Origin: Opitutales bacterium | Lineage (GTDB): Bacteria; Verrucomicrobiota; Verrucomicrobiia; Opitutales; JBHJGM01 | Assembly: GCA_050331815.1 (NCBI GenBank) | Contig: JBHJGM010000002.1 | Span: 153,627-217,626, forward strand | DNA length: 64,000 nt | Reading direction: 5' to 3' | Part shown: piece after piece, positions 9,445 through 41,834 of the stretch | Layout: the number at the start of each line of letters is the position of its first letter | How positions within the stretch are numbered: position 1 is the first letter of the stretch | Made by a program: the position numbers and the translations under genes | The notes under the pieces: generated by a model | Told to the model about the DNA's origin: nothing | The model's database searches: none | Seen by the model: the letters and a program-made list of their open reading frames with translations, nothing else

Positions 9445-11124
9445 GTGCAACATCCGCCAGCCAAAATCCAGTTCGCACTCCCGGCCCGTAACACGTTTGA
9501 GCCAGGTGTGCCGCGTCCGCGCCCGCGTTCGGATGCCCCACTTTTTGAGTTACCTGAAGAGCGCCGCTTGGAGACTGAGCCCCAGGGACAGGAGGAGAAT
9601 AAGCTACCCACTGACGCCCAAAGGCGACTGGAGACGGATAATTCCGCGGCCCAATTGAGACCGGTGCCGATGCCTCCGAAGAGTGAGGTTTCGGACACCG
9701 AAGCCGAAGGTGCAGCGGAGCCTTTGTTGAGAAAAGATGCTGCCGAGGACGGCGAGCCCGTGCTCGTTCACCCGCAACAGCTGAAGCGAGATGTCAACGC
9801 GCAAGCCAGTCACACGAAGGCAAGTGCCGAGGTGCCGACCTCGCCTATGGGGGCTGCGACGATGCGTTCAACTATTGAAAAATCGCCCGAGCCGGCGGCG
9901 ACCGAGCCACATCAGATTGCGTCGAAGGCAGCGCTGCGAGCCAAGGCTCAAGCTGCACCTCAGACATCCGCAGGCGAGCGAAACGGAACGCGCGTTGAGG
10001 TTCAGGAGGCAGCCCAACATTCGCAGGAGCGCACCGCTCAAAAGTCTGAGGCGGCAGTCGCTGGAGCTCCGGCAAAATCGCAGCGAGCATCACAAACGAT
10101 GGGCCAGCCTCCGCTTACGCAGGAGGCGACCATGGCTGCGGAAGGCGCTGAAAACAAGACCGTCCCCGCGCAAGCATCGGTATCGTATGCTTCAGATCGA
10201 TTTGCTGCCGAAACGACTGCTGCGAAGCCGAAAGAACTGGCCGTAAAGTCAATGGTGTCAGAGCCGGCGATTCAACCTGAAGCGAGCAAAAAGCCCGTGC
10301 AAACCACGCTGGGTGCCGAGTTGAACAAAGCGGATGCGGCACGCGCGCAGCTGACGGGTTTGGGCGCACCTGCGGAACCCGCCGTACTTGCGGAAATTAT
10401 TGCCGCCCGCGCCCCGGAACAGACAAGCACACGGGGCTCGGAGTCTATCTTTAGGGCACTTTCTGAAATTATGTTAAGCGTTGCAGAACAGGTCTTTAAG
10501 GGACAGTCAAAAGTCGGTGGCACAGCGGTTGCTCAGGAAACCGAAGCTCCGATGAAAGTCACCAACCCTGAGATCGAAACGCGGCCTTCGCCACATGCCT
10601 TACGCTCTGGTTTTAATGGACTGGGCGGCAGCGGGTTTGGCGCTTCGAGCGGGTCTTTTAGTGGCTTTAGTGGTGACTCGCGCGAACAGTCCTTTGGCCA
10701 GGGGCGTTCGCGTGACGGGCGCACTTCTTTGACTGGTAACGTGATGGCCCGTGACAATGCCGGTCCGAGCTTTGAACAGGCCCAGCAGAGCGCCGAGGCT
10801 CAGCGCGGTTTTGGCTCCGCTGGGGCACAACGAGCGGCAGAAGTCGTGCCAGCGGTTTTGCAGCAGATCGAGCGTTTGCGTCGCAGCGGCACGGAACGCC
10901 TCAACGTGACCCTGCCGCTCGAAGACGGGCAGATTGTCGACCTCCGGCTCAAGCTTTTTGGTGGCAGCCGCGTTCAGATTACGCTGGGCGAGATGCCAGA
11001 AGCCCTGCGTGCGTCTCTGCGCGAAGGCTGGGGCGCATTGGCCGACGAAGCGGCGACCCGTGGCCTGGCCATCGATTTTCAATGGGACGCGCAGCCGAAG
11101 CTGCCGCGCGCCCGCTTTGCATAG
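9445..11124 (+). CDS. fliK: flagellar hook-length control protein FliK (GTG start)
   Basis: 559 aa of Ala/Pro/Glu/Gln-rich low complexity with a C-terminal Flg_hook-like block (RLNVTLPLEDGQIVDLRLKLFGGSRVQITL). Lies between the fliJ block and flgD. Confidence 0.65.
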   Translation: MQHPPAKIQFALPARNTFEPGVPRPRPRSDAPLFELPEERRLETEPQGQEENKLPTDAQRRLETDNSAAQLRPVPMPPKSEVSDTEAEGAAEPLLRKDAAEDGEPVLVHPQQLKRDVNAQASHTKASAEVPTSPMGAATMRSTIEKSPEPAATEPHQIASKAALRAKAQAAPQTSAGERNGTRVEVQEAAQHSQERTAQKSEAAVAGAPAKSQRASQTMGQPPLTQEATMAAEGAENKTVPAQASVSYASDRFAAETTAAKPKELAVKSMVSEPAIQPEASKKPVQTTLGAELNKADAARAQLTGLGAPAEPAVLAEIIAARAPEQTSTRGSESIFRALSEIMLSVAEQVFKGQSKVGGTAVAQETEAPMKVTNPEIETRPSPHALRSGFNGLGGSGFGASSGSFSGFSGDSREQSFGQGRSRDGRTSLTGNVMARDNAGPSFEQAQQSAEAQRGFGSAGAQRAAEVVPAVLQQIERLRRSGTERLNVTLPLEDGQIVDLRLKLFGGSRVQITLGEMPEALRASLREGWGALADEAATRGLAIDFQWDAQPKLPRARFA

Positions 11125-20681: not shown

Positions 20682-21902
20682 ATGACGACACTTAAGGACC
20701 AGCCCACCGAATCCCTTGTCGGACGCAAGTTCCGCTTTATCGTCAGTTCGGCGGAAGAGGCGGTCACGCTCATCCGGGAGAATCTCGGTCCGCAGGCACG
20801 CGTGCTCACCGTCAAGCAGGTCGATGGCAAGGGGCTCACCCGGTTTCTGGGCAGCCCGAAGTTGGAGGTCATCGCAACCATTCCCAAAGACGCTGACTCT
20901 ACCGAGCAGACGCCCAAACAGCATAAGCCAGGCGAAGCCGAGCCCGAGCGCAGCAGTGCACCGTACGTACGCCCGGCGGAGGATACCCGCGATTCAGGGG
21001 TTCAATACGCGCGACCGGCAGCCGTCCCGCAGTCCGTGGCCGATTCATTTTCTGCAAACGCGGCTGCAGCCGGCACAGGTGAGACGCCCGACAAAGAAGA
21101 AGCCCCGGCCTCCCCGTTGCTGCGCGAGCCCAAGCCAGCCCGTCGCCCGACGAACGCCCTGGCGGATCTGTTGCGTAAGGCCCAGTTCGATGAAGGCCTG
21201 CTCTCGCGTCTGGAAAACGCCCCGGAGTGGCCGAGGCTCTGTGGATTGCCACGGGAACAGGCTCTGGGAGAAGTGTTTCAATGGCTGGGACGTGAACTGC
21301 GCCAGGTTGAGGAGCGCCCGCTCGGTCCGCGCATCGCTTTTTTGGGTACGCCCGGGGTGGGCAAGACCACGGCTCTCTGCAAGCAACTGGCCCAGGAGGT
21401 TTTCTTCGACCAGACGCAGAACCTCAACGTGCTCAAGCTCGATCACGAGGAGCCTAACCCGGACGACGCCCTGCGTACCTACTGCGATGTGCTCGGCCTG
21501 CCCTTGCTGCGCGAAGGCGACAGCCGCGATTCCCTCACCGCCGAAAGCATCATTTTCTACGACTTGCCGGGTGTGACACTGCGCGACGCTATGGGCTGGG
21601 CCAGTGCGCGCCAGCGCCTGGATGATGAAGCTGTCGACACGCGTGTGCTGGTGTTAAACGCCGCCTACGATCTCCAGCTTTTGAAGGAAGGTGTCCAAGC
21701 CGGCCATGAGATCGGCGCGACGCACCTGGTCTTCACGCACCTGGATGAGATCGGACAGCCCAACCGCCTGTGGCCCTGCCTGCTGCGCTCGGGTTTGCCC
21801 ACGCTGTTCTTCAGCGAAGGCCCCGGCATCAGCGGCGAATGCTCGCGCGACGTGCAAGGCTTCATGATGGACCGCGCGCTTCCCGCCCTCATCGGTCGCT
21901 AA
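20682..21902 (+). CDS. flhF: flagellar biosynthesis SRP-type GTPase FlhF
   Basis: G1 FLGTPGVGKTT, G3 DLPG, G4-like THLDE. Basic/disordered N-terminal B-domain. Lies after flhA. Confidence 0.8.
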   Translation: MTTLKDQPTESLVGRKFRFIVSSAEEAVTLIRENLGPQARVLTVKQVDGKGLTRFLGSPKLEVIATIPKDADSTEQTPKQHKPGEAEPERSSAPYVRPAEDTRDSGVQYARPAAVPQSVADSFSANAAAAGTGETPDKEEAPASPLLREPKPARRPTNALADLLRKAQFDEGLLSRLENAPEWPRLCGLPREQALGEVFQWLGRELRQVEERPLGPRIAFLGTPGVGKTTALCKQLAQEVFFDQTQNLNVLKLDHEEPNPDDALRTYCDVLGLPLLREGDSRDSLTAESIIFYDLPGVTLRDAMGWASARQRLDDEAVDTRVLVLNAAYDLQLLKEGVQAGHEIGATHLVFTHLDEIGQPNRLWPCLLRSGLPTLFFSEGPGISGECSRDVQGFMMDRALPALIGR

Positions 21903-21920
21903 CGCTTTGATTACTGTATC

Positions 21921-22385
21921 GTGAAAATCGTCGTCAAAGAAGGTAAGTTCATGTTGGCCCTGGGTGGTTTCGCCGGGTTCATGGCCTGTTTCTTTGGCAC
22001 GATGTTGGGTTCGGGCGACCCGTTCATCGCGTTGCGCAACGGCTCCATTGGCTGCCTGCTGGGCTTTTTTATGTGCAAGGGCGCGATGCTGGTTGTGCTC
22101 AACAACATGCAGTCGGTGCTGGAGCGGAAGTACCGCGAGCGTGTGCGCGAGGCGCGCGCTCTAGCAGAAAAAGCGGCTGCTGAGGAAGCCGCCGCTTCGG
22201 AAAAGGCCGCCGCCGAAGCCCTGGGCCAGGTAAATGAACGCCTGCGCCGGACCCGCGAGCATGCCAACGCCGCCGCTGCCGAAGCTGCCCAGAAAGCTTC
22301 CGAAAAGGAAACAGCCACGGCTGGTGCACCTGCGCCTGAATCCGCAGCTGCATCGCCTTCCGAGCCCGTCGGGGCGGAGGCGTAA
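21921..22385 (+). CDS. hypothetical small membrane protein with an Ala/Glu-rich coiled-coil tail (start GTG 21921 or ATG 21951)
   Basis: Two predicted TM helices (LALGGFAGFMACFFGTMLG; IGCLLGFFMCKGAMLVVL), then REARALAEKAAAEEAAASEKAAAEAL.... High GC3, co-directional, occupies the flhG slot between flhF and fliA. Confidence 0.45.
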   Translation: MKIVVKEGKFMLALGGFAGFMACFFGTMLGSGDPFIALRNGSIGCLLGFFMCKGAMLVVLNNMQSVLERKYRERVREARALAEKAAAEEAAASEKAAAEALGQVNERLRRTREHANAAAAEAAQKASEKETATAGAPAPESAAASPSEPVGAEA

Positions 22386-22432
22386 TCAAAACTTTTGCTA
22401 CTGGTTTCTGATACTCCCAACGAAAGCATACA

Positions 22433-33506: not shown

Positions 33507-33746
33507 ATGCTCGTGCTTTCCCGCAAAGTTGAGGAAGCCGTCGTCATCGACGGGCGCATCGAGGTACGGATCACCAAGGTCGAGGGCGATGTGGTGAAAA
33601 TCGGAATCAAGGCGCCTCGGGAAATTTCCGTCTATCGCAAGGAGTTATACGATTCTGTGCGCCAGAGTAATGAGGAAGCCGTAGCCGCCGCGCGCAAGAC
33701 GCGCTTCCCCGGGCGCGCCGCTGCCGCTGCGCGTAAGCGCTCTTGA
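33507..33746 (+). CDS. csrA: carbon storage regulator CsrA (FliW-partnered type with C-terminal extension)
   Basis: [48 protein letters not shown]. 79 aa. Confidence 0.95.
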
Positions 33747-34000: not shown

Positions 34001-35695
34001 ATGAAACTTGGGACCAAGATTATCGGGAGCGCCGTGGGCGCCGTCACCTTAACCACCGCGGTGGCCCTCTACGTGCAGAGCGGAGTCGCCCACGACCTTG
34101 GCGTCGAAATGCTCGAGCACGAGTTGCGGGCCACCCTGGTGCAGGCCGAAAGCGTGCGCGATGCCTTTTCCGAACTCAGCCAGGCCAACGCTTTTGATAT
34201 CGAAACCCTTTCCGCCGAGTTGGAAGATGCTAACGGCGACTACAAGTCCACCACCTTTTACAAGACCGTTCCGGTCGTAGCTGCCTGGGACGGGCTGAAG
34301 GAAGTCGCCGCTTTGGAGGGCTTTCAGTTTCGCGTGGTTCGGGAAGACCCGCGCAACCGCGAGAACCGCCCGGATGCGTTCGAGCTCGAGATTTTGAGTC
34401 AGCTTGAAGCCGGCGCTGAAGAGGTCTTCATCGAGCGTGACGACATCAACGCGGTGACCTTCGCCCGCCCGGTCTTCATCACCGAGGACTGCCTCTTCTG
34501 TCACGGCGACCCCAAGAACAGCCCCACCGGCGACGGCAAGGATGTGCTCGGTTTCGCCATGGAAGATTGGGATGTGGGCGACCTTCGCGGCGCGTTCATT
34601 TTGACTGCCGACTTGGAAGGCGTCGATGAGGTCGCACAGGCCGGCATCATCGAGGTGATTTTCTGGGCGATACCTGTAGTCATCATAATTTGCGGCGGAT
34701 TGTACTTTCTCGTGCGCAAAGCGGTTACCTTGCCATTGGGCCGCGCTATCGAAGATCTCAACACCGCCTCGGAACAGTCCGGTTCGGCGACCACCGAGAT
34801 TTCCAGCGCAAGTTCCTCGCTGGCTAACAGTTGCTCCGAACAAGCGGCCGCGCTGGAGCAGACCCGCGCCTCCGTTGACGAAATTTCCGGCCTGGCCGGT
34901 CGCAACAGCGAGAGTGCTCGCAAGGCGCTCGAACTTGCCGAGCAGGCCAGCGATGTGGCCCGTGAAGGCAGCAGCGGCATGGAGCAGATGAACGAGGCCA
35001 TGCTCGCCATCAAGGATTTCAGCGACCAGATCGCCAAGACCATGAAGACGATCGACGAGATCGCCTTCCAGACGAACATCCTCGCCCTCAACGCTGCTGT
35101 CGAGGCCGCGCGGGCCGGGGAAGCCGGTGCCGGATTCTCCGTGGTCGCCGATGAGGTGCGCGCCCTCGCGCAGCGTTCCGCGCAGGCTGCTCAGGACACC
35201 TCATCACTGCTCACCGAGGCAAGCGCCCGCAGTGAGCACGGCGTAACGCTCTGTTCAAACGTTCGCGAGAAAATCGACCGCATCGTCGAAACCGTCGCCA
35301 CCGTGAACGAGTTTGTGACCTCCGTCACGCAGGCCAGCGATGAGCAATCCAGCGGACTGCGCGAAGTTGTCCAGGCGGTCGCTCAGGTCGACGGTGCCAC
35401 CCAAACCAACGCCGCCAACGCCGAAGAAACAGCCTCTGCCTGCTCGGAACTCGAGGCGCAGATCGAAGCGCTCCGTGGCGTTGTCGTCGGTCTGGTGGGT
35501 GTGATGGACGGGGGCGCCACCCTGCCGCCGCAGTCGAATTTCAATGCGTCCAAAGGCGGGGGTGCTTCAGGCCAACAAAAAGGTTTTTCCATCCGTCCGG
35601 AAGCGCCCGCAATTCAGGGTGGCGGCGACCTGAACTTCCCCCAGCGTCAGAACGAAGAAGAATTCGTCGTCTCAGACGGTGGCTGGAAGAACTGA
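34001..35695 (+). CDS. methyl-accepting chemotaxis protein with a CXXCH (haem-c) periplasmic sensor domain
   Basis: TM1, ~190-aa periplasmic domain containing CLFCH (nt 34490-34504), TM2, then the conserved MCP signalling hairpin (IDEIAFQTNILALNAAVEAARAGEAGAGFSVVADEVRALAQRS). Confidence 0.9.
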   Translation: MKLGTKIIGSAVGAVTLTTAVALYVQSGVAHDLGVEMLEHELRATLVQAESVRDAFSELSQANAFDIETLSAELEDANGDYKSTTFYKTVPVVAAWDGLKEVAALEGFQFRVVREDPRNRENRPDAFELEILSQLEAGAEEVFIERDDINAVTFARPVFITEDCLFCHGDPKNSPTGDGKDVLGFAMEDWDVGDLRGAFILTADLEGVDEVAQAGIIEVIFWAIPVVIIICGGLYFLVRKAVTLPLGRAIEDLNTASEQSGSATTEISSASSSLANSCSEQAAALEQTRASVDEISGLAGRNSESARKALELAEQASDVAREGSSGMEQMNEAMLAIKDFSDQIAKTMKTIDEIAFQTNILALNAAVEAARAGEAGAGFSVVADEVRALAQRSAQAAQDTSSLLTEASARSEHGVTLCSNVREKIDRIVETVATVNEFVTSVTQASDEQSSGLREVVQAVAQVDGATQTNAANAEETASACSELEAQIEALRGVVVGLVGVMDGGATLPPQSNFNASKGGGASGQQKGFSIRPEAPAIQGGGDLNFPQRQNEEEFVVSDGGWKN

Positions 35696-35723: not shown

Positions 35724-35758
35724 AACGGCTCCCCGCACCTGGGGAGCCGTTTGCTTTT
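35724..35758 (+). terminator. rho-independent terminator after the MCP gene
   Basis: Perfect 11-bp stem AACGGCTCCCC / GGGGAGCCGTT, 6-nt loop, then TGCTTTT. Confidence 0.7.
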
Positions 35759-35844
35759 ATAGAGCCTATACTGCGGATTTTGAAGCCTTTGGCGCTTCAG
35801 GGGAGCCCGTATCTTGACGATTCATGCATAGCTAAGATCGCAAA

Positions 35845-37794
35845 ATGGCTATTAAATTCATAGGCCGTGATTCCGAGATCGATCGCCTTACCCGGGATAT
35901 CGGGCGCGGCTTTCGTGGCAACGGCGTGCCCACGGTCACGTGCGTCTACGGGCCCACCGGTATCGGCAAGTCCGCGTTTCTGGAGTTTTTTTGGGAGCGC
36001 ATCTCCAGCCTGCAAATTCCGTCCGTCTGCATCCGTGCCAAAGTCCCCGCGGAAGGCGCCGACGTGCGCGCCTGGCTGGAAGCGATCACACCGGACATCC
36101 GGGCCAGCCATCCCGCCATTCAAAAGCGCCTGGTCCGCTTTCGCCATGCCTTTGCCCAGAAAATGGCCTACCTCGACCACGGCACGCGACCGCCCTTCGA
36201 CCCGCAGCGTCCCGACGCCGCGCTGTTTGAATGGTGGCTGACCGAGCTGTGCGTCAACCTCATCGACCCGGACCAGAAAGAAGGCCGGCGGATCTCCCAG
36301 GTGCGGCTCTTCTGGTACCTCGACGATTTTGAACGCTGGCCGCCGATTTGTGAAACTTGGTTCGGCGTCTGGCTCCCGCGCGTTTTCAAGGCGCATGCGG
36401 AATCCTGTGAGCAGCGCTTTTTCACGGTGCTCGAAAAGGAACCCGCTGCGGTCACCGGATTTAAGGCTATCTGGGAGCGCGTGGGCGAGGTCACTGCGCC
36501 CATCGAACTGGCACCCTTCAGCAAGCAGCAGACGGCGGCGTTTCTGGAGTCCGCCAACCTGCCTGCCGATCAGCTCGACCATGCCTACGAGACCACCGGC
36601 GGGGTACCGGGACGCCTGGCCGAGTACCTAGACAGTCAGTCGAATGCGGGCAGCGAGCAGGAGGTCTCGCTGGTCGAAGGCGTCTTCAAGGGCAAGAGCC
36701 AGCGGGAGAACCAGTTCATTCTCTGGGCCGCGCACCTGCGTTGGTTCAGCCGCGAGTTTTTGCGATTCTTCGCCGGAAGCACCACCGGCGACGACGCCTT
36801 TGCCTACCTCAAGTTGCGCCTGGAGTTGGAACTGACGCCCACCTCCGGAGGCTATCAGGTAAGCGGGGCGGTGGCCGACGCATTGACTGCCTGGCACAAG
36901 CAGCGCCAGCCCGAAGAGTACGAGGCCTTCGAACGACGGGCTCAAATCTGCATGGACCTGTTTCACTCGGTTGGCAACGCCGCCGATTTGGGGATCCTCT
37001 CGCTGCTGGCCCGCTTTCGTTTCTTCAACAACCAGCTGATCGAACAGATCCTCCCGACCGACTCAAAGACGGTCCGCCTGTTCATCAAGGCCAACCCCCA
37101 CTTCTTTTACGAAACCGAGCACAATCAGGCTGTCGCGGATCCCTTTCGCTCACAGTTCAACGAGTACAACAGTCTGGTTGCTCACCCACAGGAACGCGAG
37201 CTGCGCGAAAAAATCCAGAACGCCTGGAACGAGCGGCGCGACGGTGTGCTGCGCGAGATGCACGAGATCGACGAGTCCATCCAGCGCGAAGAAAAAACCC
37301 TGGAAGGCATCAGCGAGGAACTCAGCAAGATGAACGCTGACAACCGGGCCAAGCGCTTTGACGAAAAGCTGACGGAGTCGCCCGACGTCAAGGTGCAGTT
37401 TGCCGGACCCAGCCCAGCGGGTGGACTGAGCGTTTTCTGCCTGGTGGGCGTCCTCGGGCTTATTTTGGGTGTAATATTCCTTTATATGGGGATCCTTTTC
37501 GCCGATCATTTTTCCATGACCTACTGCGCGGTCGGCGTGATGTGCCTGGTAGTCGGCCTTTCCGTACCGTACCGCCGCCGTCCCCAACCCCGCTCCGCTC
37601 CGATCGCCGCCGTGTCCAAACCTCGACCCAAAGCGCCACCTCCGCCGCCTTCCGATTCGAATCAGCGTCTGCTCAATATGAAACTGACCAACCTCGAGAA
37701 CAAACGATCGCTCATCATCGAATCGCTGGCGCGCCAACGCCAACGCCTGGCCGAACTCGACAGCCTGCTCTGCGAACCGTACGCCAACGCGTAA
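35845..37794 (+). CDS. membrane-anchored P-loop NTPase (AAA_16/STAND-like N-terminus, coiled coil, TM hairpin, Pro-rich/coiled-coil tail)
   Basis: FIGRDSEIDRL lead-in, Walker A GPTGIGKS (nt 35950-35973), Walker B-like RLFWYLDDFE. Also a coiled coil (ELREKIQNAWNERRDGVLREMHEIDESIQREEKTLEGISEELSKM), two adjacent TM helices (LSVFCLVGVLGLILGVIFLYMGILF; YCAVGVMCLVVGLSV) and a PKAPPPPPS tail. Confidence 0.6.
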   Translation: MAIKFIGRDSEIDRLTRDIGRGFRGNGVPTVTCVYGPTGIGKSAFLEFFWERISSLQIPSVCIRAKVPAEGADVRAWLEAITPDIRASHPAIQKRLVRFRHAFAQKMAYLDHGTRPPFDPQRPDAALFEWWLTELCVNLIDPDQKEGRRISQVRLFWYLDDFERWPPICETWFGVWLPRVFKAHAESCEQRFFTVLEKEPAAVTGFKAIWERVGEVTAPIELAPFSKQQTAAFLESANLPADQLDHAYETTGGVPGRLAEYLDSQSNAGSEQEVSLVEGVFKGKSQRENQFILWAAHLRWFSREFLRFFAGSTTGDDAFAYLKLRLELELTPTSGGYQVSGAVADALTAWHKQRQPEEYEAFERRAQICMDLFHSVGNAADLGILSLLARFRFFNNQLIEQILPTDSKTVRLFIKANPHFFYETEHNQAVADPFRSQFNEYNSLVAHPQERELREKIQNAWNERRDGVLREMHEIDESIQREEKTLEGISEELSKMNADNRAKRFDEKLTESPDVKVQFAGPSPAGGLSVFCLVGVLGLILGVIFLYMGILFADHFSMTYCAVGVMCLVVGLSVPYRRRPQPRSAPIAAVSKPRPKAPPPPPSDSNQRLLNMKLTNLENKRSLIIESLARQRQRLAELDSLLCEPYANA

Positions 37795-37834: not shown

Positions 37835-38356
37835 GTGGGCGGCGCTCCTTCCATTGGCGGAATTTTTACCCAGCGTATCGTGGTGGGCGTGGGGGACCAG
37901 GCGGTCTCCAACAACGCCACGGCCACGGTCAGCACCTACGCGCTGGGCTCCTGCGTGGCGGTGGTCACCTTCGACAAGGGTACTGGGGTGGGGGGCATCC
38001 TGCACGTGATGCTACCCGAGTCGAAGCTCTCGCCGGACAAGGCACGCAATCAGCCTGCCATGTTCGCAGATACAGGTCTACGCGTGTTCTTTCGCGATCT
38101 GCAGGGCCTGGGCGCGAACACCCGCAACCAGCGCATCGTGCTCGCCGGCGGTGCCGCGGTGCTCAGCGGCAGCGACAGTTTCAAGATTGGCGAACGCAAC
38201 ACGGCGGCCATCCGCCAGATCCTCAACGGCGCGGGCCTGCGTGCCTGTTTTGAGGATGTCGGCGGCGTGACCAACCGCACCCTCCACCTCACGCTCTCCA
38301 ATGGCACCCTCGAAATCAAGATGCCTTCGGGTAATCGCTACGTGGAGATGGCATGA
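37835..38356 (+). CDS. cheD: chemoreceptor glutamine deamidase CheD (GTG start)
   Basis: VSTYALGSCVAVVTFDKGTGVGGILHVMLPES and IGERNTAAIRQIL motifs. 173 aa. Confidence 0.85.
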   Translation: MGGAPSIGGIFTQRIVVGVGDQAVSNNATATVSTYALGSCVAVVTFDKGTGVGGILHVMLPESKLSPDKARNQPAMFADTGLRVFFRDLQGLGANTRNQRIVLAGGAAVLSGSDSFKIGERNTAAIRQILNGAGLRACFEDVGGVTNRTLHLTLSNGTLEIKMPSGNRYVEMA

Positions 38357-39210
38357 CACTCGAATCACTTATCAAACAAACCGAGAAGCTCCTGCCTAGC
38401 CCGCAGGTGCTGCCGCGTTTGCTCACCGTACTCGAAAGCGATGACGCCTGCGCCTGGGACATCGTCGACTTGGTCAAGCTCGACGCCGCCCTGACCACGC
38501 AAGTCCTCGCCCTGAGCAACAGCGCCTTTTACGGCTTTGCCAGCACAAGCACCGATCTGGAGGAAGCCGTCAACCGACTCGGCTTCCGCGAATTGTACAA
38601 GCTCGTCAGCCTGGTGCTTTGCCGCAAGCTGATCGGCAAGGATAGCCTCGAAGCGTACCTGCTCGCCGAGGGCCAGCTCTGGGAGCATTCTCTCGCCACT
38701 GCCGTGGCCGCCGAAAACATCGCTGGGCTGGCCGCTGAGGATTCCTCACTGGCTTATACGGTCGGTTTGATGCATTGCATCGGCAAGCTGGCTATCAACC
38801 AGTTGGGCTCCGGACACTACGAAGCAGTCTACCGTAAAATCGAGGAGGAGAACCTCACCATGCTCGAAGCCGAGCGCGCCGTCATGGGCTTCGACCATGC
38901 CGAGGCCACCGCCGCGCTGCTGCGTCACTGGAATTTTCCGGAGGAGGCCTGGAAACCGATCCAGCACCAGTACGTGCCCGCAGAGGCCGTCGCCCACAAG
39001 GGCATGACCGCGGTGCTGCACACGGCTGTTTACGTGGCCGCCATCACCGGTACGAACCATGGCCGCGACGCCTGGGCCTTCCGTTTGGACGACAACGCTT
39101 TGAAGATGGCCCGCCAGACGCCCGAGTCGATTCAGGAGATCGTCATCCAGGTCGTCGAGCGTCTGGAGACCGTCAAGGGCCTGATCGGCACCAACGCGAA
39201 CAACAAGTAA
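38353..39210 (+). CDS. HDOD domain protein
   Basis: LPSPQVLPRLLTVLESDDACAWDIVDLVKLDAALTTQVLALSNSAFYGF...GLMHCIGKLAI...GFDHAEATAALLRHWNFPEE. ATGA overlap with cheD. Confidence 0.8.
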   Translation: MTLESLIKQTEKLLPSPQVLPRLLTVLESDDACAWDIVDLVKLDAALTTQVLALSNSAFYGFASTSTDLEEAVNRLGFRELYKLVSLVLCRKLIGKDSLEAYLLAEGQLWEHSLATAVAAENIAGLAAEDSSLAYTVGLMHCIGKLAINQLGSGHYEAVYRKIEEENLTMLEAERAVMGFDHAEATAALLRHWNFPEEAWKPIQHQYVPAEAVAHKGMTAVLHTAVYVAAITGTNHGRDAWAFRLDDNALKMARQTPESIQEIVIQVVERLETVKGLIGTNANNK

Positions 39211-39231: not shown

Positions 39232-40164
39232 ATGCTGTCTGCCCGCAAAAAGGAACCCACCACGCTCGCCGACCAGCCGGTGGGCGATCTCGATGTGCTG
39301 AAGCAGAAGGTCGACGATTGCCCGATGCTGCCCTCGCTGCGGCGCATCGGCGAGTCCCTTAAAGAACTGCTCGAAGGCGAGAACGCGACCTCGGCCTCCA
39401 TCGCTGAAATCGTCGAACGCGACCCCAGTCTTTCCACCCGCGTGATGAAGATCGTCAATTCGGCGCTCTTCGGTCTGTCCCGGAAGGTCGAGGCCATCGA
39501 GGACGCCGTCTTTTACCTGGGTGTGCGCCAGATTCGCGAGCTGGCCATGAGCCTGCCGGTTATCGACGAAACCTCTTCAATGTGCGCGGGCAGCGCCTCG
39601 GGAGCCACCTGGCAAAGTTTCTGGGAGCACAGCCTTGCCGTGGCCGTGACCAATCGCGAAATCCACGGTTTGGCCAATTTGAACGAGGAGTTCGATGTCG
39701 GTTACATTTCCGGGCTGGTCCACAACATTGGGCTGATCGCCCAGGCGCAGATTTTTCCGGTCGAGTTCGCGCGCAACCTCGCGTTGCCCCCGTTGGATAG
39801 TGCGCAGGCCTTCACCGCTTTTGAACGCGAAAACATCGGTTGGGACCACGGCCTGATCGGTTCATTTTACCTGGCGCGGCACCAGATGGGTGCGGAGATT
39901 CTCGAGAGCGTGCAGTTCCACGTCGCGCCGAGTTTGGCCGTGGAACATCCTAAGTTTGCCGCCGCCGTCGAGCTTGCCGAGTCCATTGCGCGCTGCAGCG
40001 GCCTGATCGGAGCCGAGCCCATCGAGCTGCCCCATCAGGACGACTGGACGCGTTCCAACTCCCTCGAAATCCTCTTTCCGGAAGAGAGCATTCGCACCCG
40101 CGCGGTGGAGCGGCTCGAGCGTTTTGCCGGCAAGCTGCCGCTGGCGCTCGACGTTTTGAAGTAG
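39232..40164 (+). CDS. HDOD domain protein (second copy)
   Basis: LPSLRRIGESLKELLEGENATSASIAEIVERDPSLSTRVMKIVNSALFGL...GLVHNIGLIAQ...GWDHGLIGSFYLARHQMG. Confidence 0.8.
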   Translation: MLSARKKEPTTLADQPVGDLDVLKQKVDDCPMLPSLRRIGESLKELLEGENATSASIAEIVERDPSLSTRVMKIVNSALFGLSRKVEAIEDAVFYLGVRQIRELAMSLPVIDETSSMCAGSASGATWQSFWEHSLAVAVTNREIHGLANLNEEFDVGYISGLVHNIGLIAQAQIFPVEFARNLALPPLDSAQAFTAFERENIGWDHGLIGSFYLARHQMGAEILESVQFHVAPSLAVEHPKFAAAVELAESIARCSGLIGAEPIELPHQDDWTRSNSLEILFPEESIRTRAVERLERFAGKLPLALDVLK

Positions 40165-40207: not shown

Positions 40208-40414
40208 CTACCGACAGCGCGCGACGAAAAAGCGCTGCGAAGTACCTTGGCTGCCCACGCGTACCCGCACGGATTTCCCGCAACTGGGGCAGCAACCGGT
40301 GTACGCGCTGCCGTCCGGCAGACGATACAGCCTGCCGTAGACGGAGCAATCGGCAAAGTAAACCCCGAGGAAGGGCTTTGCGGAGGCTCCGGCTGAGGGC
40401 GCTTGTGTTTTCAT
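40208..40414 (-). CDS. hypothetical small Cys-containing protein (possible zinc-ribbon-like)
   Basis: 68 aa from the internal ATG: MKTQAPSAGASAKPFLGVYFADCSVYGRLYRLPDGSAYTGCCPSCGKSVRVRVGS.... Cys at C-x17-CC-x2-C. Convergent with the HDOD genes. ORF evidence only. Confidence 0.3.
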   Translation of the reverse strand: MKTQAPSAGASAKPFLGVYFADCSVYGRLYRLPDGSAYTGCCPSCGKSVRVRVGSQGTSQRFFVARCR

Positions 40415-40573: not shown

Positions 40574-41086
40574 ATGTCCGCATCGACCGCTACCGAGACC
40601 GCCACCGAAACCAAGAAAAACACCCACCGCGCCACTGTCGCCGAAAAGTACCTCACCTTTACCCTGGGCGCGGAGACTTACGGCCTGGCCGTTTTGCGCA
40701 TCAAGGAGATCATTCAGCATCAGCAGATTACCGCAGTGCCTCAGGTGCCTAGCTACATTAAGGGCGTGCTCAATCTGCGTGGTAAGGTCATCCCCGTGAT
40801 CGACATGCGAGTGAAGTTTTGCCTCGGCCACGAGCAGGTCGACGAGCGCACCTGTATCATTGTGGTGCAGGTTCAGTGTGAAAACCGCGGGCAGGTTTTG
40901 GTTGGCCTCATCGTGGATGCCGTCGAGGAGGTACTCAACATCAACGCCGCGCAGATCGAGGAGAAGCCCGACCTGGGCGGACGCGTCGACAATCAGTTCA
41001 TCCACGGCATCGCCAAGGTCGAGGGGAAGGTCAAAACCCTCCTCGATATCGAGACGATCATCCTCGGCGAGAACATGCAGTTCTAA
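40574..41086 (+). CDS. cheW: chemotaxis coupling protein CheW
   Basis: KYLTFTLGAETYGLAVLRIKEIIQHQQITAVPQVPSYIKGVLNLRGKVIPVIDMRVKF. 170 aa. Confidence 0.9.
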   Translation: MSASTATETATETKKNTHRATVAEKYLTFTLGAETYGLAVLRIKEIIQHQQITAVPQVPSYIKGVLNLRGKVIPVIDMRVKFCLGHEQVDERTCIIVVQVQCENRGQVLVGLIVDAVEEVLNINAAQIEEKPDLGGRVDNQFIHGIAKVEGKVKTLLDIETIILGENMQF

Positions 41087-41139: not shown

Positions 41140-41178
41140 AAAATCTCCGGCGTCACCATGCGCCGGAGATTTTGTTTT
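41140..41178 (+). terminator. rho-independent terminator after cheW
   Basis: Perfect 13-bp stem AAAATCTCCGGCG / CGCCGGAGATTTT, 8-nt loop, followed by GTTTT. The A-tract upstream makes it potentially bidirectional. Confidence 0.75.
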
Positions 41179-41306: not shown

Positions 41307-41834
41307 ATGTACCCGATCCTCGCTTCCGGCCTGATGGCCGCCGGACACCGCCTCCTCGAAGGCGTCATTGCCCCCACCGCCCAGCGCGCGCTCAACGCTG
41401 TCGGCGAGGCCTTCTCCGGAGAATCCATCCAGGCCCCCACGCAGGCAAAAGCGGTCTCCCCGCTCAGCCAGCGCCTGTCCGCTCAGGGCGTGACCGATGC
41501 CCAGGGGCTGGCCAATCATCGCTTTCACCTGCAACAGCAGTTGCTGCAGCATCCGGAAGTCCGTTCCTTCCTGGACCAATTCGATCCGGGTGCCGGCATC
41601 AGTCTGAGCCTTGAACAGGGTTCGCTCTTTACGCTCAAGGGACCCGATGGTCGCTCCTTGAGTTTTCCGGCGGATTCGGAACTCGGCCAGCTCGCCATGG
41701 AATTGCATCAGGTGGCCAGCGTCGACGAGGCGCTCAAGCAGCAACCCGGGCTTTCGCTCTTTGATGTGGCGGACCAGGTGTCCGAAGCGCCCGGGCTGCA
41801 AGCCAACTGGGTGCTGCGCTCAAGTATCGCCTGA
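41307..41834 (+). CDS. hypothetical protein (175 aa)
   Basis: ORF with high GC3. No TM helix and no motif recognised (…RFHLQQQLLQHPEVRSFLDQFDPGAGISLSLEQGSLFTLKGPDGRSLSFPADSELGQLAMELHQ…). Confidence 0.45.
   Translation: MYPILASGLMAAGHRLLEGVIAPTAQRALNAVGEAFSGESIQAPTQAKAVSPLSQRLSAQGVTDAQGLANHRFHLQQQLLQHPEVRSFLDQFDPGAGISLSLEQGSLFTLKGPDGRSLSFPADSELGQLAMELHQVASVDEALKQQPGLSLFDVADQVSEAPGLQANWVLRSSIA

What the first reader, a model, noticed from the sequence alone, without database searches (positions are those of the whole stretch)
35845..37794. Membrane-anchored STAND/AAA_16-like P-loop NTPase leading a cheD-HDOD-HDOD transcription unit
A strong terminator (35724-35758) closes the MCP gene. The next gene encodes a 649-aa protein, followed after 40 nt by cheD and then two HDOD genes, the first joined to cheD by an ATGA overlap. 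The protein has a FIGRDSEIDRL...GPTGIGKS Walker A and an hhhhDD Walker B N-terminus, typical of AAA_16/STAND-type signalling NTPases. This is followed by a helical region, a ~60-aa coiled coil, a two-helix TM hairpin and a Pro-rich plus coiled-coil tail. I know of no canonical chemotaxis or flagellar component with this architecture. It is not FlhG/MinD, ParA/ParC, CheA or FlhF. Its placement suggests a role in chemoreceptor-array or flagellar-pole organisation, or a new input into CheD/receptor modification. A coincidentally inserted STAND-type defence-like gene is also possible.
Basis: partly seen in the sequence, partly recalled or inferred. Interest (0 to 1): 0.75.

Follow-up and report, generated by a model that had tools for sequence, protein, structure and literature searches.

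The report
Membrane-tethered STAND-like ATPase partnered with HDOD/CheD
The gene encodes a member of an undescribed family of membrane-anchored switch-type ATPases that, across distantly related bacteria, sits beside HDOD proteins, a CheD receptor deamidase or flagellin genes, which points to an unstudied accessory module of bacterial motility or chemotaxis signalling.

Summary
In detail: a 649-aa ORF (35845-37794, +) with canonical Walker A (GPTGIGKS, K42) and Walker B (LDDFE), a long helix, a two-helix TM hairpin, a Pro-rich linker and a C-terminal helix. cheD follows after 40 nt, then two HDOD genes, the first joined by an ATGA overlap. Pfam AAA_16 just passes its threshold. An AlphaFold model (pLDDT 85) matches Orc1/Cdc6 and NB-ARC/STAND modules.

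An exhaustive HMMER search finds about 120 clusters of end-to-end homologues at 17-30% identity. They share the TM hairpin and a C-terminal EP[Y/F] motif. None carries an informative name and I found no paper on them.

Gene contexts of 15 members:
- 9 have an HDOD gene next or next-but-one downstream (6 independent contexts, several with no flagellar genes nearby).
- 6 of those 9 have CheD in between.
- 3 others abut flagellin/FlgK genes.
- 3 have neither.

The linkage is therefore real, but HDOD rather than CheD is the core partner. There are no defence-system signatures and GC content is native. The terminator upstream is specific to this window.

Best reading: a nucleotide-dependent membrane scaffold or switch acting with HDOD adaptors, plus CheD in Opitutia, on chemotaxis or flagellar function. 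The mechanism is inferred, not shown. It is a new variant of a known kind.

The parts
34001..35695 (+). MCP gene with a Tll0287-like sensor and MCPsignal domain. It lies immediately upstream and is conserved in that position in the four closest loci. It carries two methylation/deamidation consensus sites, one of them an E-Q pair.
35724..35751 (+). Terminator-like hairpin (12-bp stem, 8 GC pairs, T-rich tail) after the MCP gene. It is specific to this window and was not found in L001 or L004.
35796..35822 (+). Upstream block TTCAG-N15-GACGATT, conserved in the three closest loci. It may be a promoter element. The sigma-28 reading is not supported.
35845..37794 (+). 649-aa membrane-anchored AAA_16/STAND-like P-loop NTPase (whole ORF including the stop codon).
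35950..35973 (+). Walker A, GPTGIGKS (aa 36-43; K42 is nearly invariant in the family).
36307..36333 (+). Walker B, LFWYLDDFE (aa 155-163; D160 is conserved in the closer relatives, and the second acidic residue varies across the family).
36595..36612 (+). TGGVPG (aa 251-256), the GxP motif of the helical lid. G253 is invariant and P255 nearly invariant. It aligns with GGIPG of the archaeal ATPase 2fna.
37192..37374 (+). 61-residue continuous helix (aa 450-510), highly charged with moderate heptad periodicity. It forms the stalk between the NOD and the membrane.
37426..37569 (+). Two-helix TM hairpin (aa 528-575) with a very short outer loop. Both ends are predicted to be cytoplasmic.
37570..37650 (+). 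Basic, Pro-rich linker (aa 576-602), predicted to be disordered.
37651..37791 (+). C-terminal helix plus L-x-E-P-Y motif (aa 603-649). It is 81% invariant among the three closest homologues, and the EP[Y/F] motif recurs across most of the family.
37835..38356 (+). cheD (173 aa). The catalytic Thr/Cys/His positions are conserved relative to T. maritima CheD (2f9z).
38353..39210 (+). HDOD gene 1 (H1 orthogroup), joined to cheD by an ATGA overlap. The HD doublet reads HC.
39232..40164 (+). HDOD gene 2 (H2 orthogroup). Of the two HDOD types, this is the one found with the NTPase beyond the window's own group. The HD doublet reads HN.
40208..40414 (-). Conserved convergent 68-aa Cys-rich ORF that marks the 3' end of the unit. 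It is 75% identical to its L001 counterpart.

Best explanation
The gene encodes a member of an undescribed and rarely sampled protein family.

Architecture:
- The cytoplasmic N-terminal two-thirds is an AAA+/STAND-type nucleotide-binding oligomerisation module: a P-loop NBD, a helical lid with a GxP motif, a winged-helix-like module and a family-specific helical domain.
- It has no recognisable sensor repeats and no effector domain.
- A stalk helix of about 60 residues leads to a two-helix membrane hairpin that acts only as an anchor.
- A Pro-rich linker returns to the cytoplasm and ends in a strongly conserved helix with an L-x-E-P-Y motif at the C-terminus.

Proposed mechanism:
- The protein acts as a nucleotide-dependent switch or scaffold at the inner membrane, working with stand-alone HDOD proteins of two orthologous types.
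- In Opitutia it also works with a catalytically intact CheD deamidase.
- The conserved tail is the likeliest docking element.
- The output is modulation of chemoreceptor modification and/or flagellar function.

What is shown and what is inferred:
- Shown: the architecture, the existence of the family, and the conserved gene linkage to HDOD, CheD and flagellar filament genes.
- Inferred: physical interaction, oligomerisation, the role of the tail, and the motility output.
For: Fold and motifs:
- AAA_16 scores above its gathering threshold.
- The IELxPF...GGxPG segment aligns with the archaeal ATPase_2 protein 2fna.
- The AlphaFold model has mean pLDDT 85.1.
- The top Foldseek matches are Orc1/Cdc6 and the NB-ARC modules of NLRs, Dark/Apaf-1 and Avs4.

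Family:
- 122 representatives at E <= 1e-3, most aligning end to end at 17-30% identity.
- They share the TM hairpin and the C-terminal EP[Y/F] motif.

Linkage:
- NTPase-CheD-HDOD-HDOD occurs in the window, P0002, P0003 and P0004.
- NTPase-CheD-HDOD occurs in housekeeping neighbourhoods in P0009 and P0007, with the H2-type HDOD 7-8 kb away.
- NTPase-HDOD without CheD occurs in L012, L016 and L017.
- The NTPase lies directly after flagellin arrays, or divergent from FlgN-FlgK-FlgL-flagellin, in P0018, P0151 and P0014.

Partners and origin:
- The CheD catalytic residues are kept in all six cassettes.
- The NTPase gene's GC content equals that of its surroundings.
- Independent literature links stand-alone HDOD proteins to swimming motility (PSPTO_4229, PMC11813219) and to adaptor function (SadB, PMC12075610).
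Against: - No experiment or interaction prediction supports physical coupling.
- 3 of the 15 sampled members (P0005, P0022, P0039) have neither HDOD nor flagellar neighbours.
- Five HDOD-linked loci (L005, L009, L012, L016, L017) show no flagellar genes in the DNA held. One of them is from a MAG labelled Coraliomargarita akajimensis, a species I recall as non-motile. The module may therefore not be strictly flagellar.
- In about half of the 33 aligned members the residue after the Walker A lysine is not Ser/Thr, and Walker B is degenerate. Hydrolysis is therefore not a conserved property, although this window's protein is canonical.
- The NTPases contain no MCP-like CheD substrate motif.
- The sample of contexts is small. 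Apart from the Opitutales/Opitutia MAGs and one MAG labelled Coraliomargarita akajimensis, the members come from unlabelled metagenomes.
Confidence: 0.55

Rival explanations
1. It is a general membrane-associated HDOD-dependent signalling or adaptor system, for example controlling regulated proteolysis or second-messenger output. Under this reading it is not specific to motility, and its placement in the flagellar cluster of this genome, together with CheD, is a lineage-specific recruitment.
For: - HDOD is the most persistent partner, and five HDOD-linked loci (L005, L009, L012, L016, L017) show no flagellar genes in the DNA held.
- The HDOD protein SadB acts as a proteolysis adaptor (PMC12075610).
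- Three members have no informative neighbours.
Against: - Three independent subfamilies lie directly beside flagellin or FlgK/FlgL genes.
- Four members are embedded in a flagellar/chemotaxis supercluster.
- CheD, a dedicated chemoreceptor-modifying enzyme with intact catalytic residues, lies inside the cassette in six members.
Confidence: 0.2
2. It is a flagellar assembly, placement or number factor: a membrane landmark or checkpoint acting on late (filament) stages, analogous in role to FlhF/FlhG or to flagellin-synthesis checkpoints. Under this reading CheD and HDOD are only co-regulated neighbours.
For: - The gene lies adjacent to flagellin, FlgK/FlgL, FliW-CsrA or FlbT-FlaF genes in seven members.
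- This window has only a very divergent FlhF-like ORF, and there is no room for an FlhG gene between it and the sigma factor gene.
Against: - The tight NTPase-(CheD)-HDOD cassette persists outside flagellar clusters.
- There is no sequence relationship to MinD/FlhG (no deviant Walker A) or to the SRP-type FlhF.
Confidence: 0.15
3. It is a STAND-type anti-phage or conflict system in which the NTPase senses an invader and CheD-like deamidase and HD-type proteins act as effectors.
For: - The fold resembles Avs4 and NLR NB-ARC modules.
- From my own knowledge, deamidases and HD phosphohydrolases occur as effectors in conflict systems.
Against: - PADLOC gives no significant hit for the NTPase, its distant relatives, CheD or the HDODs. 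There are only generic P-loop or HD matches at E of about 1e-3 to 1e-2.
- The GC content is native.
- The flanks are syntenic housekeeping or flagellar genes, with no integrases, restriction-modification or toxin-antitoxin genes.
- The HD doublet is lost in all 13 HDOD proteins examined.
- There are no sensor repeats.
Confidence: 0.07
4. The adjacency is chance or mere colinearity, and the NTPase is functionally unrelated to its neighbours.
For: The three closest genomes are colinear over more than 20 kb, so their synteny alone is uninformative.
Against: An HDOD gene lies immediately downstream in six independent genomic contexts, with NTPases at about 20-30% identity to the window protein and with unrelated flanking genes. 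The same two HDOD orthogroups recur in these contexts.
Confidence: 0.03

Closest known systems
STAND NTPases with an AAA_16 / NB-ARC-type NOD (for example MalT-like regulators, plant NLRs, Apaf-1/Dark, Avs)
   Same: It has a P-loop NBD with an N-terminal FIGRxxEL segment, a Walker B of the hhhhDD type, a helical lid with a GxP motif and a following winged-helix-like module. Pfam AAA_16 scores above threshold, and Foldseek hits include Roq1, NRC3, RPP1, Sr35, Dark and Avs4.
   Different: It has no TPR, WD40 or LRR sensor repeats and no fused effector domain. In their place it has a stalk helix, a TM hairpin and a conserved C-terminal EPY helix. Its partners (HDOD, CheD) are encoded in trans. 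Walker motifs are degenerate in many family members.
Archaeal Orc1/Cdc6 and archaeal ATPase_2 proteins (PF01637, for example 2fna)
   Same: These give the best Foldseek E-values (2v1u, 1w5t, 1fnn, 2qby). 2fna matches by sequence over the Walker B-to-lid region, including IELxPF...GGxPG.
   Different: TM-scores are low (0.2-0.4). Sequence scores are far below family thresholds (TIGR02928 19.9 bits against 181.3; ATPase_2 21.4 against 33.2). It is membrane-anchored, and nothing in its genomic context points to replication.
CheC/CheD (and CheX) accessory chemotaxis system of Bacillus and Thermotoga
   Same: The cassette contains a bona fide CheD with conserved catalytic residues, encoded beside a partner protein and, in this genome, an MCP.
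   Different: No CheC, CheX or FliY-like gene is present in the cassette. The CheD neighbours are a STAND-like NTPase and HDOD proteins. The NTPase has no receptor-like substrate motif of the kind by which CheC mimics receptors (the CheC mimicry is from my knowledge of Chao et al. 2006).
Stand-alone HDOD motility regulators (P. syringae PSPTO_4229; Pseudomonas SadB)
   Same: The partner proteins are single-domain HDOD proteins of about 280-310 aa, like PSPTO_4229 (273 aa). Deletion or overexpression of PSPTO_4229 alters swimming (PMC11813219). SadB is an HDOD adaptor (PMC12075610).
   Different: Neither of the two papers read here (PMC11813219, PMC12075610) describes a P-loop partner for those proteins. 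Here two HDOD orthogroups co-occur with a membrane NTPase.
FlhF/FlhG (flagellar P-loop regulators)
   Same: They are P-loop NTPases encoded in flagellar clusters, with membrane association.
   Different: The P-loop classes are different: FlhF is an SRP-type GTPase and FlhG a MinD/ParA-type ATPase with a deviant Walker A. No Pfam or NCBIfam match to either was found.

Membership tests
Pfam AAA_16 (PF13191) | Score at or above the curated gathering threshold | tested here: met
   35.9 bits against 32.6, E = 1.4e-8, aa 4-147. For several relatives the hit is only weak, faint or absent.
STAND NTPase class | P-loop NBD with Walker A GxxxxGK[ST] and Walker B hhhhD[DE] | tested here: met
   GPTGIGKS and LFWYLDDFE are present in the window protein. 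Across the 33 aligned members the residue after the Lys is S/T in only about half, and Walker B varies.
STAND NTPase class | Helical lid (HD1/ARC1) with a GxP motif, followed by a winged-helix domain | tested here: met
   The TxGxPG motif has G253 invariant and P255 nearly invariant. The model shows a lid at aa 227-281 and an alpha+beta module at aa 286-340. Foldseek aligns about 400 columns with NB-ARC and Orc1 proteins. This is evidence from a model only.
STAND NTPase class | C-terminal ligand-sensing repeat domain (TPR, WD40, LRR) and/or a fused effector domain | tested here: not met
   No repeat or effector domain was found by Pfam. The C-terminus is a stalk helix, a TM hairpin and a further helix.
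STAND NTPase class | Nucleotide-dependent, ligand-induced oligomerisation | not testable with these tools
   This needs biochemistry or multimer modelling.
Orc1/Cdc6 (TIGR02928) and archaeal ATPase_2 (PF01637) | Full-length profile match above the curated cut-off | tested here: not met
   TIGR02928 scores 19.9 bits against 181.3, over the N-terminal 50 aa only. ATPase_2 scores 21.4 against 33.2.
Known anti-phage STAND systems (Avs and others in PADLOC) | Match to a defence-system protein model, and a defence-island context | tested here: not met
   The best PADLOC hit is E = 0.01. Partners and distant relatives give nothing significant. The flanks are flagellar or housekeeping genes.
FlhG/MinD/ParA and FlhF | Deviant Walker A (KGGxGK[ST]) or SRP54-type GTPase domain | tested here: not met
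   No Pfam or NCBIfam hit to these families was found, and the Walker A is the classical GxxxxGKS.
CheD (PF03975), for the downstream gene | Family match plus the catalytic Thr/Cys/His of T. maritima CheD | tested here: met
   PF03975 scores 87.6 bits against 25. It aligns to 2f9z at E = 1.3e-21, and the T...GSC...H positions are conserved in all six cassettes. The identity of the catalytic residues is from my knowledge of Chao et al. 2006.
HDOD (PF08668), for the two downstream genes | Family match, with the catalytic HD doublet typically degenerate | tested here: met
   Scores are 161.2 and 131.1 bits against 22.9. The doublet reads HC and HN. Metal or ligand binding was not tested; some HDOD domains bind di-iron (PMC12075610).

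The most novel reading that the evidence does not exclude
A previously unrecognised signalling module. A membrane-tethered STAND-like nucleotide switch, through its conserved EPY tail, assembles HDOD adaptor proteins at the inner membrane, together with CheD in Opitutia. This would control chemoreceptor modification and/or flagellar filament and motor function. It would give the orphan HDOD domain its first defined partner and mechanism, and it would add a new class of P-loop regulator to bacterial motility alongside FlhF and FlhG.
Probability: 0.35. Interest if true: 0.75.

Novelty: new variant of a known kind. Interest (0 to 1): 0.6.

Why it matters
HDOD is a widespread signalling domain with repeated genetic links to motility and biofilm formation. 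It has no general biochemical mechanism, and the two HDOD papers I read describe no dedicated partner for it. A conserved, tightly linked P-loop partner gives a concrete experimental handle: interaction tests, nucleotide dependence, tail-motif mutants. It also shows STAND-type NODs used in a new format, membrane-anchored, without sensor repeats and with partners in trans, outside transcription control and immunity. Finally, it places CheD in a cassette with no CheC, which suggests a different way of controlling receptor deamidation in Verrucomicrobiota. The family carries no informative annotation ('AAA family ATPase' or 'hypothetical protein'), so flagging it improves the reading of flagellar and chemotaxis loci in PVC bacteria and in other lineages.

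Tried and rejected
1. Sigma-28 promoter. The block TTCAG-N15-GACGATT upstream of the gene is conserved in the three closest loci. It does not recur upstream of other flagellar genes in the window, where the only other match lies inside fliF. It is barely conserved in L004. I dropped it.

2. Coiled coils as a receptor-like CheD substrate or mimic. None of the 10 NTPases tested has the [ASTG][ASTG]xx[EQ][EQ]xx[ASTG][ASTG] motif, whereas the adjacent MCP has two. Rejected.

3. Profile searches with the search for homologous proteins. The full-length family alignment was swamped by generic AAA_16 adenylate-cyclase and SARP proteins that match only about 7% of the query. The alignment of the C-terminal two-thirds returned only the close clade plus P0101. 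Neither gave taxonomy for the distant members.

4. The search for related loci. The narrower alignments gave only 2 genome loci and 1 metagenome locus.

5. Stand-alone 'TM hairpin plus tail' mini-proteins (P0051, P0056, P0093, P0095, P0100). At least one (P0095) shares its last 12 residues with longer or full-length entries (P0058, P0060). Some may be truncated gene calls, so I make no claim about them.

6. Defence-system reading. PADLOC was negative.

7. Sequence search of the PDB. It gave only generic P-loop matches and 2fna.
Full report
**1. Observation**

The ORF at 35845-37794 (+) exists as described and encodes 649 aa. The window is a flagellar/chemotaxis supercluster of an Opitutales MAG. 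The exact protein is on record as 'MAG: AAA family ATPase [Opitutales bacterium]'.

The cluster contains these genes:
- CheB and CheR on the minus strand.
- FliF, FliG, FliI, FliM, FlhB and FlhA.
- A FliA-like sigma factor, then MotA and MotB.
- FlgF, FlgG, FlgA, FlgI, FlgN, FlgK and FlgL.
- FliW and CsrA (33507-33746).
- An MCP with a Tll0287-like sensor (34001-35695).
- The NTPase, CheD, HDOD, HDOD, a small convergent ORF, CheW, and a hybrid histidine kinase.

- A 12-bp-stem hairpin with a T-rich tail lies at 35724-35751.
- The gap to the cheD GTG start is 40 nt.
- cheD and HDOD1 overlap by ATGA.
- The gap to HDOD2 is 21 nt.

**2. The protein**

- **Family scans.** Pfam AAA_16 just passes its threshold, at 35.9 bits against 32.6. 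All other hits (ATPase_2, nSTAND1, Orc1/Cdc6 TIGR02928) are sub-threshold and cover only the first ~50 residues or so. PADLOC is negative.
- **Membrane topology.** Hydropathy gives two adjacent TM helices at aa 528-553 and 556-575, joined by a loop of roughly 3-5 residues and followed by RRRPQPR. The hairpin therefore leaves both the N-terminal bulk and the C-terminal tail in the cytoplasm.
- **Model.** An AlphaFold2 model built on 33 family sequences has mean pLDDT 85.1. It shows an alpha/beta NBD, a helical lid, two small alpha+beta/helical modules (aa 286-444), one continuous helix at aa 450-510, the TM hairpin, a disordered Pro-rich linker and a helix at aa 603-642.
- **Fold search.** Foldseek against the PDB returns archaeal Orc1/Cdc6 first (2v1u, 1w5t, 1fnn, 2qby; E about 1e-5). 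Next come the NB-ARC modules of Roq1, NRC3, RPP1 and Sr35, then Dark, and further down Avs4.
- **Sequence search of the PDB.** A family profile matches only generic AAA+ P-loop regions, plus the archaeal ATPase 2fna across Walker B to the lid. The signature IELxPF...GGxPG, the GxP motif, lies in that stretch.
- **Conclusion.** The N-terminal ~440 residues form an AAA+/STAND-type NOD. The remainder has no known counterpart.

**3. The family**

The word-indexed search found only two relatives at 51-54% identity; the one named record among them is labelled an Opitutales MAG. The exhaustive HMMER scan of 1.84 billion representatives found 122 proteins at E <= 1e-3, 70 at <= 1e-10 and 20 at <= 1e-30. 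Most are 600-750 aa, and the 32 I aligned end to end share 17-54% identity with the window protein.

Features shared across the family:
- FIGRxxEL at the N-terminus.
- GxxGxGK (Walker A).
- A Walker B strand.
- EIxLxPL.
- TxGxPG.
- LSxFxxFN.
- A TM hairpin about 100 residues from the end.
- L-x-E-P-[Y/F]-x at or near the C-terminus.

Three further points:
- **Tail conservation.** Among the three closest sequences the C-terminal 47 residues are 81% invariant, against 26-56% for the other regions. The tail is under the strongest constraint.
- **Walker motifs.** The residue after the Walker A lysine is Ser/Thr in only about half of the 33 aligned members, and the second Walker B acidic residue varies. 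Nucleotide binding is likelier than hydrolysis to be the conserved property. The window protein itself is canonical.
- **Annotation.** No member carries an informative name, and no paper in the library connects CheD with HDOD or a STAND ATPase with flagella.

**4. Is the linkage conserved?**

I obtained genomic contexts for 15 distinct members, counting the window.

| Context | Members |
|---|---|
| MCP-NTPase-CheD-HDOD-HDOD inside a flagellar cluster | window, P0002, P0003, P0004 (30% identity; synteny breaks after HDOD2) |
| NTPase-CheD-HDOD(H1) among housekeeping genes, H2-type HDOD 7-8 kb away | P0009 (Opitutia bacterium UBA3534), P0007 |
| NTPase followed directly by HDOD, no CheD | L016 (MAG labelled Coraliomargarita akajimensis; H1-type), L012 (P0038, another subfamily; H2-type), L017 (H2-type) |
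| NTPase beside flagellar filament genes, no HDOD or CheD | P0018 (after three flagellin genes), P0151 (after a flagellin array), P0014 (divergent from FlgN-FlgK-FlgL-flagellin-FlbT-FlaF) |
| Neither | P0005, P0022, P0039 |

What follows from this:
- HDOD lies immediately or next-but-one downstream in 9 of 15 members. These represent six independent genomic contexts with unrelated flanks, in loci of 45-64% GC.
- The same two HDOD orthogroups recur across these contexts.
- This cannot be colinearity or chance. HDOD, and the H2 type in particular, is the core partner.
- CheD together with H1-type HDOD appears to be an elaboration within the window's broader group, whose labelled members are all Opitutia.
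- The flagellin-gene adjacency in three other subfamilies independently ties the family to motility.

**5. The partners**

- **CheD.** All six cassette CheDs keep the residues that align with the catalytic Thr, Cys and His of T. maritima CheD. The identity of those residues is from my knowledge of Chao et al. 2006.
- **HDOD.** All 13 HDOD proteins examined have lost the Asp of the HD doublet; they read HC, HN, HA, QG or FG. This is typical of HDOD, but it does not exclude metal or ligand binding, because some HDOD pockets bind di-iron (PMC12075610).
- **Relative divergence.** Identity to the window across the module for NTPase / CheD / H1 / H2 is 54/92/77/59 in L001, 32/60/51/36 in L004, 27/60/37/43 in L009 and 25/41/41/41 in L005. 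Apart from its tail, the NTPase is the fastest-evolving component.
- **A possible CheD substrate.** The adjacent MCP has two methylation/deamidation consensus sites, one an E-Q pair, so a CheD substrate is encoded next door. The NTPases have none.

**6. Transcription**

The hairpin terminator between the MCP gene and the NTPase gene is specific to this window. The same scan finds none on the + strand in L001 or L004.

A block TTCAG-N15-GACGATT is conserved upstream in the three closest loci. It does not behave as a recurrent sigma-28 element.

The NTPase-cheD gap is 11 nt in L005, 40-52 nt in the window clade and about 190-250 nt in L004 and L009. A four-gene transcript is plausible here. It would end before the conserved convergent 68-aa ORF at 40208-40414. 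It is unproven.

**7. Interpretation**

**Best-supported reading (confidence 0.55).** The protein is a nucleotide-dependent membrane scaffold or switch of STAND type whose partners are supplied in trans. The conserved cytoplasmic EPY helix is the likeliest docking element. The output is on chemoreceptor modification and/or flagellar function. The architecture, the family and the linkage are shown. The interaction, the oligomerisation and the output are inferred.

**Rivals:**
- A general HDOD signalling or adaptor module that is not specific to motility (0.2). In its favour, five HDOD-linked loci show no flagellar genes in the DNA held.
- A late flagellar assembly or placement factor (0.15).
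- A defence system (0.07). It is disfavoured by the PADLOC negatives, the native GC content and the flanks, which are not island-like.
- Chance adjacency (0.03).

**8. Novelty and score**

The NOD is a known kind (AAA_16/STAND). The membrane-anchored format without sensor repeats, the EPY tail and the HDOD/CheD partnership are undescribed in the libraries searched. I therefore rate it a new variant of a known kind.

Interest is 0.6. The family is real and conserved, and it makes HDOD function directly testable. There is no functional evidence yet, and the taxonomic and contextual sample is small.

Noticed in passing
window 20682-21902 (+), and the gap 21903-22432: The 406-aa ORF at the position where FlhF normally lies (after FlhA, before the sigma factor gene) has only sub-threshold SRP54 and MMR_HSR1 hits (E = 0.006 and 0.002). 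The roughly 530-bp gap before the FliA-like sigma gene leaves no room for an FlhG/MinD-type gene. This genome may have a very divergent FlhF and no linked FlhG.
   Followed up: partly
window 40208-40414 (-): A conserved 68-aa Cys-rich ORF (C...CPAC...C, zinc-ribbon-like) lies convergent to HDOD2, between HDOD2 and cheW. It is 75% identical to L001 14346-14552 and also present in L002. Neither counterpart has a Pfam family on record.
   Followed up: partly
window 41307-41834 (+): A 175-aa ORF downstream of cheW has no Pfam hit. It is conserved (69% identity) at the same position in L001 and is also called in L002. It may be an uncharacterised chemotaxis-cluster protein.
   Followed up: partly
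window 9445-11124 (+): A 559-aa ORF inside the flagellar operon, between the FliI/FliJ region and the hook genes, has no Pfam hit at E <= 1e-3. It may be a divergent FliK or hook-length protein.
   Followed up: no
window 35796-35822 (+); L001 and L002 upstream regions: The intergenic block GCGCTTCAG-N15-GACGATT is conserved upstream of the NTPase gene in the three closest genomes. It may be a promoter of unknown sigma specificity. It does not recur upstream of other flagellar genes in the window.
   Followed up: yes
window 41140-41173 (+): A strong terminator-like hairpin (14-bp stem, 7 GC pairs, T-rich tail) lies immediately after cheW (which ends at 41086). It suggests cheW ends its own transcript.
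   Followed up: no
window 34001-35695 (+); L001, L002, L004: The MCP upstream has a Tll0287-like periplasmic sensor domain and lacks a C-terminal NWETF-type pentapeptide; it ends ...SDGGWKN. It is conserved immediately upstream of the NTPase in all four flagellar-cluster loci.
   Followed up: partly
Representative-library proteins P0070, P0077, P0081, P0083, P0088, P0094, P0105, P0106, P0110: A subgroup of about 425-437-aa proteins matches only the NOD part of the family (up to about aa 405). They lack the TM hairpin and the EPY tail, so they are soluble relatives of the membrane-anchored family. A second subgroup of about 710-750 aa aligns with the window protein only from about aa 150-290 onward; its P-loop region did not align in the phmmer search.
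   Followed up: no
L007 11890-16988 and L018 1-7889: In distant members the NTPase neighbours three tandem hybrid-cluster (Prismane) genes (L007) or an array of full and fragmentary flagellin genes (L018). The fragmentary flagellin calls in L018 suggest pseudogenisation or assembly or frameshift problems.
   Followed up: no
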